This document shows, one piece after another, positions 54,501 to 57,450 of a stretch of 64,000 nt of DNA (within the stretch, counting starts at the first letter, position 1; every line of letters begins with the position of its first letter). Where the stretch lies: sequence record OQ718158.1. One strand, given 5' to 3'. A program made the translations under genes and the position numbers. The notes under the pieces are model-generated. The model was not told the origin of the DNA and did no database searches. It saw only the letters and a program-made list of their open reading frames with translations. The DNA comes from Escherichia phage vB_Ec-M-J.

Positions 54501-54911
54501 ATGATTGAAATGGAAGGAACTCTGGTGTATGATCCAGATCGTGGCACTATGAAAAAGAAGAAGGACTTCTGGTTAGTACTGCAACTTCCATTACAGTTGG
54601 TTCGATACTACCAGTACTTCATCAGAACTGACTTACATATTGATATTAAAGACCCACAATGGGGAGCACATGTCAGTATCGTTCGTGGTGAAGTGCCACC
54701 AAATCCAGAGTACTGGAAAAAGTACGATGGTATGAAAGTTAAGATTAAGTTCGAACCTTTCATCGAAGAAGTAAAAGACAATAAGAAACCTGGGTCATTC
54801 TTTATCATAGAGTTTGAAGATGATTTCATTGCACAAATTCGTGATGAACTTGGTTTAGCATCTAAATATTTCAAATATCACATCACCATTGGTAGAACAT
54901 ACTACGATTAA
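54501..54911 (+). CDS. putative 2H-phosphoesterase (LigT/cyclic-phosphodiesterase-like)
   Basis: Two H-x-[ST]-x motifs (AHVSIV and YHITIG) about 70 aa apart. Confidence 0.4.
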   Translation: MIEMEGTLVYDPDRGTMKKKKDFWLVLQLPLQLVRYYQYFIRTDLHIDIKDPQWGAHVSIVRGEVPPNPEYWKKYDGMKVKIKFEPFIEEVKDNKKPGSFFIIEFEDDFIAQIRDELGLASKYFKYHITIGRTYYD

Positions 54912-56020: not shown

Positions 56021-56353
56021 ATGCTAAATCTAGTTATCCAAGGTAATGTTGATATTACTCCAGCAATCAATGACGCAATTCATGCTGAAGCAAATGCACT
56101 AACGAAGTTTAGTGATTCTTCAGTACTGCATATTGGTGTTCATGTGAAGAAAGAGCATAAGAATCAATATTTCGTAACTTTAACATCAGGCGGTAAGAGT
56201 GTTACAGCCGATGATGCAGATTTATACAAAGCAATTGGTGATTCATTTGAAAAAATGGAAACTGTCTTAGGTAAAGACAAAAGCATCAAATTGCATCGCC
56301 GTAACCACCCCGAACATCCAGTTCAAGAAGACTTGACTGAAGACGAAGAGTAA
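56021..56353 (+). CDS. hpf: ribosome hibernation promoting factor (HPF/YfiA family)
   Basis: Collinear with E. coli HPF (MLNLVIQGNVDITPAINDAI...V.VKKEH...LYKAIGDSFEKME). Confidence 0.75.
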   Translation: MLNLVIQGNVDITPAINDAIHAEANALTKFSDSSVLHIGVHVKKEHKNQYFVTLTSGGKSVTADDADLYKAIGDSFEKMETVLGKDKSIKLHRRNHPEHPVQEDLTEDEE

Positions 56354-56362
56354 GATATAATA

Positions 56363-56392
56363 AAGGGACAGAGATTATTCTGTCCCTTTTCT
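56363..56392 (+). terminator. rho-independent terminator
   Basis: GGGACAGA-GATTAT-TCTGTCCC followed by TTTTCTT. Confidence 0.8.
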
Positions 56393-56407: not shown

Positions 56408-56824
56408 ATGAATTATGTTTGGGTAGATGTAGTAAAATCTCTCGTATCAACACATGATGTTGATTTACCAGATAGTCTGGTATTTAACAGATGGTACTAT
56501 CCAAATCCAGAGGACTGTAACGTTGGAATTGGATTTTTTATTAATGATAAATCTAATTTGTTTGGATTAATTGAAGATGAGACAAAATCCAACCTTATAT
56601 TCTCGATTGAGTTGAATGCTGATCACATAAAATACTACACCAATAAAATGGACGAAGACGATGGAGATGTTATAATCCCAGCAGAAATAGACGAAGCTTC
56701 ATTTTTTCAGTTATCATTGATTTATGATCTATCTAACATTAATTATGATAATGTGAAAGACCTTTTTATATTGTACAATAAAATGTATAATTACTTTTTA
56801 AGACCTTTTTATATTGTACAATAA
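56408..56824 (+). CDS. hypothetical protein (3' end lies inside a 43-bp tandem duplication)
   Basis: Track ORF; stop codon falls in the second repeat copy. Confidence 0.5.
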   Translation: MNYVWVDVVKSLVSTHDVDLPDSLVFNRWYYPNPEDCNVGIGFFINDKSNLFGLIEDETKSNLIFSIELNADHIKYYTNKMDEDDGDVIIPAEIDEASFFQLSLIYDLSNINYDNVKDLFILYNKMYNYFLRPFYIVQ

Positions 56825-56842
56825 AATGTATAATTACTTTTT
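56757..56842. repeat. perfect tandem duplication, 2 x 43 bp
   Basis: aagacctttttatattgtacaataaaatgtataattacttttt at 56757-56799 and again at 56800-56842. Confidence 0.9.
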
Positions 56843-56860
56843 TATAACAGAGGAATTGTA

Positions 56861-57046
56861 ATGGAATATACCATATGTGTAATTGTATGTATCATAGCCT
56901 TACTCGCAGGAGTTGGTGTGATGATTTACTGTGATGCGGAACCCAGTACTGAAGTAGGTACAACCATCACACTTAAACCTGGTGTTAAAATTAATGATAC
57001 CTATTGCTACAATCCAAACACAAACCGTTATGAGATTTGTTTATGA
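56861..57046 (+). CDS. small membrane protein
   Basis: N-terminal hydrophobic helix; AGAGGAA RBS. Confidence 0.45.
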   Translation: MEYTICVIVCIIALLAGVGVMIYCDAEPSTEVGTTITLKPGVKINDTYCYNPNTNRYEICL

Positions 57047-57450
57047 AAACATTCAACATTGTTCATATAATTGAACCGATTGCAGAACATATTAAAAACA
57101 TAAGTAAGAACGAGTCAGGTTTTTTCTTCAATTTAGACAAACTTCATCGCTATACCAATGTATCTAGTTTTAATCGTGCTAAGAGACTTTACATCCGTAT
57201 ACACAACCTATGGTACAGTGACGATACGTTGATGATAGATATCACGGTTGGTGAAGAAATAACATTAAGATATATTGACGATTTTAAATCAGATGATATT
57301 CGTGCTGGATCATTACCAATTGATGCTTCATATGAAGAATATCTGCAATACCAGTTCATTGATGACACATTTGGATTTGACTTTGAACTATATAATAGTA
57401 TAATGAACGTATACCATATATACGAAAGGAATTTGAATGGACATTCGTAA
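57037..57450 (+). CDS. hypothetical protein (paralog of 57437..57859)
   Basis: Shared C-terminal motif QFIDDTFGFDF vs MFIDDTFSIDY. Confidence 0.5.
   Translation: MFMKTFNIVHIIEPIAEHIKNISKNESGFFFNLDKLHRYTNVSSFNRAKRLYIRIHNLWYSDDTLMIDITVGEEITLRYIDDFKSDDIRAGSLPIDASYEEYLQYQFIDDTFGFDFELYNSIMNVYHIYERNLNGHS

What the first reader, a model, noticed from the sequence alone, without database searches (positions are those of the whole stretch)
56757..56842. Perfect 43-bp tandem duplication at a gene 3' end
The unit aagacctttttatattgtacaataaaatgtataattacttttt occurs twice back to back with no mismatch. The period is not a multiple of three, so the duplication rewrote the last residues and stop of the 56408 gene. 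Perfect identity implies a recent event or active maintenance.
Basis: seen in the sequence. Interest (0 to 1): 0.4.

Follow-up and report, generated by a model that had tools for sequence, protein, structure and literature searches.

The report
Inherited 43-bp duplication extending a phage gene
A small gene of unknown function in a giant E. coli phage carries a genuine, inherited 43-base tandem duplication that adds seven amino acids to its end; it is an ordinary structural polymorphism found in many related phages, not an artefact, not recent and not a special element.

Summary
Window 56757-56799 and 56800-56842 are identical head-to-tail copies of a 43-bp unit, the only such array in the window. 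The window is an Asteriusvirus (121Q/PBECO4-like jumbo coliphage). The protein is 100% identical to EcMJ_266 of phage vB_Ec-M-J.

Single-copy relatives end the orthologous gene (phrog_36582, unknown function) with ...NYFL, then TAA. The duplication junction falls between that last codon and the stop. All ancestral residues are therefore kept, seven new ones (RPFYIVQ) are read from copy 2 in a shifted frame, and the stop moves 21 nt downstream. The C-terminus is extended, not rewritten.

The same array occurs in 14 other independent sequences, three of them with an 11- or 12-nt deletion in copy 2. It sits on gene alleles down to 82% nucleotide identity and next to eight different downstream haplotypes, so it is neither an assembly artefact nor recent. 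Copies do drift apart in some genomes, so nothing suggests active homogenisation.

The unit is not a dispersed repeat. It does not fit the phage's promoter consensus, is not a terminator and has no significant RNA structure. Apparent single-copy twins of two-copy genomes all come from k=31 assemblies and are probably collapsed.

Best reading: one old, near-neutral duplication in a recombination-prone, indel-prone gene joint. Interest is low.

The parts
56757..56799 (+). Copy 1 of the 43-bp unit. It encodes the ancestral C-terminus, (K)DLFILYNKMYNYF, plus the first two bases of the final Leu codon.
56800..56842 (+). Copy 2 of the 43-bp unit. Its first base completes codon L131. Bases 2-22 are read in a shifted frame as RPFYIVQ and bases 23-25 are the new stop. 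The last 18 bases are now intergenic.
56408..56824 (+). Gene of unknown function (138 aa, phrog_36582; no Pfam or PADLOC hit). Its 3' end carries the duplication. Residues 1-131 correspond to the whole single-copy orthologue.
56801..56824 (+). The 7-codon extension aga cct ttt tat att gta caa (RPFYIVQ) plus the new stop TAA (56822-56824).
56769..56780 (.). 12-bp perfect palindrome TATTGTACAATA inside copy 1. It repeats at 56812-56823 in copy 2. There is no evidence of function: it occurs nowhere else in the window at 0 mismatches.
56843..56860 (+). Extra T (sixth of the run), the relic of the ancestral stop (TAA at 56845-56847), and the ribosome-binding site GAGGAA (56850-56855) of the next gene.
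56861..57046 (+). Downstream 61-aa gene (phrog_4189, one predicted membrane-spanning stretch). Its start is now 36 nt from the upstream stop. In single-copy relatives the spacer is 13 nt.

Best explanation
The feature is a real, heritable 43-bp tandem duplication of the last 14 codons of a small Asteriusvirus gene of unknown function.

Shown: the ancestral gene ended ...tac ttt tta TAA. The segment from 'aagacc' to 'acttttt' was copied once, head to tail. The junction has only 1 nt of possible microhomology (the 'a' of tta/aag). It falls exactly between the last sense codon and the stop. Because 43 = 3x14+1, translation runs on into copy 2 in a shifted frame, adds RPFYIVQ, and stops at a TAA inside copy 2. 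The spacer to the next gene grows from 13 to 36 nt.

Inferred: the duplication arose once by illegitimate recombination or template switching, in the lineage whose unit reads 'aaaatg'. It was neutral or nearly so. It has since been carried by descent and by homologous recombination in this highly mosaic region into several diverged gene alleles and next to several different downstream segments. The two copies remain identical in most genomes because this stretch evolves slowly everywhere, not because they are kept identical. No regulatory role is needed to explain it.
For:: perfect 2 x 43 bp, unique in the window.

relatives with one copy are 121Q, PBECO4, UE-S1, G17, Salmonella phage SD-15_S21, fEgEco12 and TH47. 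Relatives with two copies are BF17, EC.P1, WPEC5, A4, five E. coli WGS assemblies and two ENA metagenome contigs. In the phage collection, 4 of 31 matching records hold the junction.

the family profile and all short orthologues end at L131. All long forms are that sequence plus RPFYIVQ (one has RPFYIGQ).

the two-copy state occurs in four to five deep gene-body lineages, with pairwise identity down to 82%.

upstream and downstream haplotypes are reassorted (U0 with D0 and D1, D0 with U0 and U2, U4 with D3 and D6, D3 with U4 and U6). Recombination therefore occurs at or near the unit.

the copies diverge in some genomes. The changes are A12G, T42A, T18G, a 12-nt deletion and an 11-nt deletion in copy 2.

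the unit is not a dispersed repeat, does not match the sigma-70 scan or the phage's own GGGACA-N13-14-TGATATAAT consensus, is not terminator-like, and its RNA fold z-score is -0.33.
Against: Neutrality is inferred, not shown. Eight of twelve 90%-identity protein clusters carry the extension. Both independent deletions in copy 2 spare the extended reading frame. Both facts are compatible with weak selection for the tail or for the longer spacer.

A single origin cannot be proven. The 86 bp are identical across backgrounds that differ by 11-18%. That requires either recombinational spread or strong local constraint.

No reads were available for this particular genome. A close relative in a Logan assembly (L025, 2 mismatches over about 2.3 kb) shows one copy.
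Confidence: 0.75

Rival explanations
1. Assembly artefact: the genome really has one copy (or more than two) and the assembler produced the perfect doublet.
For: The junction pattern was absent from IMG/VR, JGI metagenome contigs and GTDB genomes. Logan contigs nearly identical to two-copy genomes show one copy: L018 versus L015 has 0 substitutions in 3.4 kb, L014 versus L013 has 0 substitutions across about 1.4 kb around the array, and L025 versus the window has 2 mismatches in about 2.3 kb.
Against: Fourteen other independent sequences from different laboratories, countries and assemblers carry the array. They include complete phage genomes, ~350-360 kb contigs in E. coli WGS assemblies and a k141 metagenome contig. 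An 86-bp array is shorter than ordinary reads. The discordant single-copy contigs are all Logan (k=31) assemblies. Every Logan contig examined that keeps the extension has fewer than 31 nt shared between its copies, which is what de Bruijn graph collapse predicts.
Confidence: 0.03
2. The unit is a regulatory element for the downstream small membrane-protein gene, either a weak promoter (TGTATAAT) or an operator (the palindrome TATTGTACAATA). The doubling is kept by selection because it doubles that signal.
For: Each copy contains TATAAT preceded by TG, and a perfect 12-bp palindrome. The unit is nearly invariant across the genus. The two-copy form is common.
Against: No acceptable -35 box was found by the scan. 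The phage's own strand-biased promoter motif is TGnTATAAT (16 on + versus 1 on -), often with GGGACA 13-14 nt upstream. The unit has no spacer base after TG, and its only AGAC-like box lies 21 nt upstream. TATAAT occurs 70 times on the + strand of this 35% GC window. TH47 has TACAAT. Two independent deletions remove exactly the TGTATAAT of copy 2 while the rest is retained. Most of the unit is coding sequence for an invariant peptide, and the gene has few synonymous changes anywhere.
Confidence: 0.08
3. Contingency (switching) locus: the perfect repeat expands and collapses at high frequency within phage populations. This would toggle the C-terminus (...NYFL*, ...NYFLRPFYIVQ*, and in this lineage ...NYFFITEEL* overlapping the next start) and the coupling to the next gene.
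For: Genome pairs that differ by nothing, or almost nothing, except copy number. One-copy and two-copy forms occur within one 90% protein cluster.
Against: The near-identical one-copy partners checked at DNA level are all k=31 Logan assemblies. The other within-cluster short forms are the NYFI/cassette type or short ENA contigs whose DNA was not examined. No three-copy allele was seen in 27 loci. Copies accumulate private mutations in some genomes, which argues against rapid turnover.
Confidence: 0.1
4. By-product of cassette exchange: the duplication was created by unequal recombination between two co-infecting phages at the conserved gene-end block that serves as a mosaic joint. It is a scar of modular shuffling.
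For: The region immediately downstream is a cassette hot spot. EC.P1, WPEC5 and fEgEco12 have an extra 372-nt gene plus a 126-nt gene. WPEC3 lacks the whole 138-aa gene. Copy 2 of EC.P1 and WPEC5 carries the T42A variant otherwise linked to the fEgEco12-type cassette. Flanking haplotypes are reassorted.
Against: There is only 1 nt of homology at the junction, so the event that made it was not homologous. Nothing distinguishes this origin from intragenomic template switching. This rival overlaps the main explanation rather than excluding it.
Confidence: 0.2

Closest known systems
Short tandem duplications from illegitimate recombination or replication template switching in phage and bacterial genomes (general knowledge, not a curated family)
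   Same: Two exact head-to-tail copies. The single-copy state is found in relatives. There is little or no junction microhomology. It causes a frame-shifted read-through that lengthens an ORF. It can be lost again by recombination between the copies.
   Different: Nothing essential differs. The only notable points are its persistence across many diverged, mosaic genomes and its position exactly at the sense-codon/stop boundary.
PeSL cassettes (promoter-early stem-loops) of T4-type phages, which mediate modular shuffling (Arbiol et al. 2010, PMC2839356; Comeau et al. 2014, PMC4122927)
   Same: A short conserved sequence sits at a joint where optional small ORFs are gained, lost and exchanged between related large myoviruses.
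   Different: The unit has no strong sigma-70 promoter and no stem-loop terminator, and it is not dispersed in the genome. Most of it is coding sequence. A better PeSL-like candidate lies upstream at 56333-56389.
Conserved boundary or linker sequences at mosaic joints of lambdoid phages (modular theory; own knowledge)
   Same: A conserved block lies between reassorting segments, and the haplotypes on its two sides are shuffled.
   Different: Here the conserved block is simply the conserved C-terminal coding region of a gene. No evidence shows that it is specialised for recombination.

Membership tests
Simple tandem duplication (structural polymorphism) | Two or more head-to-tail copies of one unit, beyond chance | tested here: met
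   2.0 copies, 100% identity, 0 matches in 100 shuffles.
Simple tandem duplication (structural polymorphism) | Single-copy state in relatives or outgroup, so the doublet is derived | tested here: met
   121Q, PBECO4, UE-S1, G17, Salmonella phage SD-15_S21, fEgEco12 and TH47 have one copy. The PHROG profile ends at L131.
Simple tandem duplication (structural polymorphism) | Reproducible in independent assemblies (not an artefact) | tested here: met
   14 further independent sequences.
Simple tandem duplication (structural polymorphism) | Read-level support in this very genome | not testable with these tools
   No reads were available.
PeSL regulatory cassette (T4-type phages) | Strong sigma-70-like early promoter | tested here: not met
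   no site with at least 4/6 in both hexamers uses the unit's TATAAT; no fit to the phage's extended -10 consensus.
PeSL regulatory cassette (T4-type phages) | Stem-loop that acts as a terminator | tested here: not met
   no terminator-like site in the unit; fold z-score -0.33.
PeSL regulatory cassette (T4-type phages) | Many dispersed copies in hyperplastic regions | tested here: not met
   the unit and its core occur only here within the 64 kb.
Intrinsic terminator | GC-rich hairpin followed by a U run | tested here: not met
   The T run follows an AT-rich, unstructured stretch.
Contingency locus (repeat-mediated switching) | Copy number varies among otherwise identical genomes or within a population | tested here: inconclusive
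   such pairs exist, but every one-copy partner is a k=31 Logan assembly, where collapse is expected.

The most novel reading that the evidence does not exclude
The perfect 43-bp doublet is a repeat-mediated switch. Frequent expansion and collapse within phage populations would toggle the C-terminal tail of the 138-aa protein, and the distance between its stop and the start of the downstream small membrane-protein gene. Selection for that switching, or for the tail, would explain why the doublet persists unchanged across backgrounds that are 11-18% diverged.
Probability: 0.1. Interest if true: 0.4.

Novelty: new member of a known kind. Interest (0 to 1): 0.12.

Why it matters
It matters little biologically: a hypothetical protein gains a seven-residue tail. 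The practical value is in annotation and assembly. The gene's 131-aa and 138-aa forms are the same orthologue. Copy number at this site is not reliable in k=31 (Logan) assemblies. The site also marks a recombination- and indel-prone joint in Asteriusvirus genomes that could serve as a strain marker.

Tried and rejected
- **Dispersed repeat or regulatory cassette.** The unit, its 21-nt core and its 12-bp palindrome were searched in the window and occur only at this site.
- **Promoter.** The consensus scan and comparison with the phage's own TGnTATAAT/GGGACA motif gave no fit.
- **Terminator or RNA structure.** The fold of 56740-56880 has z = -0.33. The single-copy PBECO4 equivalent has z = -0.67.
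- **Protein function.** Pfam and PADLOC gave no hit and PHROGs gave only an unknown-function family. The AlphaFold2 model from the 12-sequence alignment had mean pLDDT 40.5, so no fold search was run.
- **More examples by exact junction pattern.** IMG/VR, JGI metagenome contigs and GTDB genomes each gave 0 hits. E. coli complete genomes and PLSDB plasmids gave no match. IMG/VR held only 121Q itself.
- **Nucleotide-level constraint beyond coding.** Codon-by-codon variation showed that the whole gene has few synonymous changes and varies in patches. The invariance of the unit is therefore not exceptional.
- **Literature.** No description of this repeat was found. The Asteriusvirus and CBB papers only give general promoter predictions.

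Full report
**Observation.** Window 56757-56799 and 56800-56842 are two identical head-to-tail copies of AAGACCTTTTTATATTGTACAATAAAATGTATAATTACTTTTT. Tandem Repeats Finder reports period 43, 2.0 copies, 100% matches and score 172. Every other array in the 64 kb scores 46 or less. Allowing 3 mismatches, the unit occurs only at these two places, and none of 100 dinucleotide-preserving shuffles gives any match. The ORF 56408..56824 (138 aa) ends inside copy 2.

**What the window is.** The surrounding 1.5 kb matches 33 phage records, all Asteriusvirus-type jumbo phages of E. coli and Salmonella (121Q, PBECO4, BF17, A4 and others). The best match is BF17 at 97.9%. The 138-aa protein is 100% identical to EcMJ_266 of Escherichia phage vB_Ec-M-J. 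Genes are almost all on the + strand and tightly packed. Upstream lie a LysM/lysozyme gene and an HPF/RaiA-like gene. Downstream lie a 61-aa gene with a hydrophobic stretch, two paralogous genes of unknown function and a CCA-adding enzyme. The 138-aa gene belongs to phrog_36582 (unknown function) and has no Pfam or PADLOC hit. An AlphaFold2 model was too poor to use, with mean pLDDT 40.5.

**What the duplication did.**
- Single-copy relatives read ...aat tac ttt tta TAA, so the protein ends ...KDLFILYNK(M/L)YNYFL*.
- In the window the first copy supplies the same residues. The 'a' that completes the last Leu codon is the first base of copy 2.
- Translation then continues through copy 2 in a frame shifted by one (43 = 3x14+1) as aga cct ttt tat att gta caa TAA. 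That adds RPFYIVQ and a stop at 56822-56824.
- The PHROG profile aligns to residues 7-131 and ends there. In an alignment of the twelve 90%-identity clusters, the long forms are the short forms plus these seven residues.
The tail is extended by seven residues and the stop is moved 21 nt.
- The rest of copy 2 (18 nt) becomes intergenic. The distance from the stop to the next gene's ATG (56861) grows from 13 nt in single-copy relatives to 36 nt.
- The junction shows at most 1 nt of microhomology. The event was therefore illegitimate recombination or template switching, not slippage between pre-existing repeats. This step is inference.

**Real or artefact, recent or old.**
- The same two-copy array is present in BF17, EC.P1, WPEC5 and A4.
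- It is present in ~350-360 kb phage contigs inside five E. coli WGS assemblies: GCA_973721985, GCA_011911785, GCA_025677605, GCA_036253495 and GCA_012813795.
- It is present in two ENA metagenome contigs.
- Three Logan contigs carry a full first copy and a second copy with a 12-nt or 11-nt internal deletion.
- That makes 14 independent sequences besides the window. No three-copy allele was seen.
- One copy is found in 121Q, PBECO4, UE-S1, G17, Salmonella phage SD-15_S21, fEgEco12, CMSTMSU and TH47. The doublet is therefore derived.
- A neighbour-joining tree of the gene body upstream of the unit places two-copy genomes in four to five deep lineages, with pairwise identity as low as 82%.
- Clustering the gene body and the downstream 61-aa gene at 95% shows reassorted combinations: U0 with D0 and D1, D0 with U0 and U2, U4 with D3 and D6, D3 with U4 and U6. 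Sliding identity profiles show the whole region is a patchwork.
- The duplication is therefore not recent. It has been inherited and moved by recombination through a mosaic region.

**Why the copies are identical.** The unit is nearly invariant in all genomes, including single-copy ones, with at most 1-2 differences in 43 nt. The gene as a whole shows few synonymous changes and varies in patches. Where change has occurred, the copies differ:
- EC.P1 has A12G in copy 1 and T42A in copy 2, and WPEC5 has T42A in copy 2.
- ENA ERZ28616714 has T18G in copy 2, giving RPFYIGQ.
- Copy 2 carries a 12-nt or 11-nt deletion in three Logan contigs.

This is passive divergence, not homogenisation.

**Copy-number twins.** Three single-copy contigs are almost identical to two-copy genomes:
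- L018 versus L015: 0 substitutions in 3.4 kb.
- L014 versus L013: 0 substitutions across about 1.4 kb around the array.
- L025 versus the window: 2 mismatches in about 2.3 kb.

All three are Logan assemblies. These are built with k=31 (from my own knowledge of that resource), and a 43-bp perfect repeat forms a loop in a k=31 graph. Consistent with this, every Logan contig examined that keeps the extension has fewer than 31 nt shared between its copies (26 or 28 nt). I therefore read the twins as assembly collapse. Real polymorphism is not excluded.

**Is the unit a functional element?**
- It is not dispersed.
- The sigma-70 scan finds no acceptable -35/-10 pair that uses the unit's TATAAT.
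- The window has a striking strand-biased motif, TGnTATAAT: 16 on + versus 1 on -, mostly TGATATAAT, often with GGGACA 13-14 nt upstream. The unit's TGTATAAT lacks the spacer base, and its only AGAC-like box is 21 nt away.
- TATAAT alone occurs 70 times on the + strand.
- There is no terminator-like hairpin, and the RNA fold is no better than shuffles, z = -0.33.
- Both independent deletions in copy 2 remove its TGTATAAT but leave the extended reading frame. That argues weakly against selection for a second promoter and weakly for tolerance, or mild benefit, of the tail.

**Context.** The joint is indel-prone:
- EC.P1, WPEC5 and fEgEco12 have a 372-nt gene plus a 126-nt gene inserted right after the unit.
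- WPEC3 lacks the 138-aa gene altogether.
- The window and L025 have a sixth T after the array.
- An ENA contig has a single copy with the 11-nt deletion.

This resembles hyperplastic regions of T4-type phages, where PeSL cassettes mediate shuffling (PMC2839356). The unit itself fails every defining PeSL feature tested.

**Verdict.** This is a real, inherited, derived tandem duplication that extends a hypothetical protein by seven residues. It is most likely near-neutral, and it lies in a recombination-prone joint. It is an ordinary kind of event: a new example of a known kind, of low interest. The most novel reading not excluded is a repeat-mediated switch of the C-terminal tail, at about 10% probability.

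Noticed in passing
window, + strand: 1527, 9971, 12194, 17628, 21157, 26543, 48059, 53779, 59135, 62742 and others: There is a strongly strand-biased extended -10 motif TGnTATAAT: 16 on the + strand versus 1 on the - strand. Most copies are TGATATAAT, and many have GGGACA or (G/T)AGACA 13-14 nt upstream of the TG. It looks like this phage's own promoter consensus. A paper on the related phage CBB reports only general RpoD-like promoters and a TGAAACG -35 variant.
   Followed up: partly
window 56333-56389: A near-consensus promoter (TTGACT-17-TATAAT, 11/12) directly abuts an 11-bp-stem hairpin with a T-rich tail, between the HPF-like gene and the 138-aa gene. The hairpin is annotated as a terminator in G17 and UE-S1. 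This promoter-plus-stem-loop composite resembles the PeSL cassettes of T4-type phages. In WPEC3 the 138-aa gene is missing right after it.
   Followed up: partly
window 56021-56353: The phage encodes an HPF/RaiA (ribosome hibernation / S30AE) family protein (Pfam PF02482, E = 3e-10). It is conserved across Asteriusvirus.
   Followed up: no
L002 2361-2857, L006 2361-2857, L007 2302-2798; L011 2854-2908: The site just downstream of the unit is a cassette hot spot. EC.P1, WPEC5 and fEgEco12 carry an extra 372-nt gene plus a 126-nt gene there. WPEC3 lacks the whole 138-aa gene and has a different N-terminus on the small membrane-protein gene.
   Followed up: partly
window 56838-56843; L025 about 1886-1891: The T run after copy 2 has six T here and in Logan contig ERR3531548_60. 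All other full two-copy genomes examined have five. In a one-copy genome the sixth T would change the C-terminus to ...NYFFITEEL* and make the stop overlap the next start (TAATG), as in protein P0019.
   Followed up: yes
L014, L018, L025 (Logan) versus L013, L015, window: Logan (k=31) contigs that are otherwise identical to two-copy genomes show a single copy. Logan contigs keep the extension only when the copies share fewer than 31 nt. This is probably systematic collapse of short perfect tandem repeats in that resource.
   Followed up: partly
L013, L015, L017, L020, L022 (NCBI E. coli assemblies): Several E. coli isolate WGS assemblies contain 350-360 kb contigs that are Asteriusvirus genomes. 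Their proteins are named as E. coli proteins in nr and UniRef. None is in RefSeq complete E. coli genomes or in PLSDB.
   Followed up: no
window 57037-57450 and 57437-57859: Two adjacent, overlapping genes both match phrog_20693 (E = 1e-59 and 8e-52). They are a tandem pair of paralogues of unknown function. This stretch is also the most divergent part of the region between the window and BF17 (73-93% identity).
   Followed up: no
window 56649-56676: Inside the 138-aa gene, TGGACG-N13-TGTTATAAT partly fits the phage promoter consensus. The spacing is not conserved in A4-type alleles, which have a 3-nt deletion there.
   Followed up: no
window 54501-54911 and 57995-59110: A weak 2H-phosphoesterase-like hit (PF22547, below cut-off) and a CCA-adding tRNA nucleotidyltransferase flank the region. 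With the HPF-like gene, they suggest a cluster of RNA/translation-related functions.
   Followed up: no
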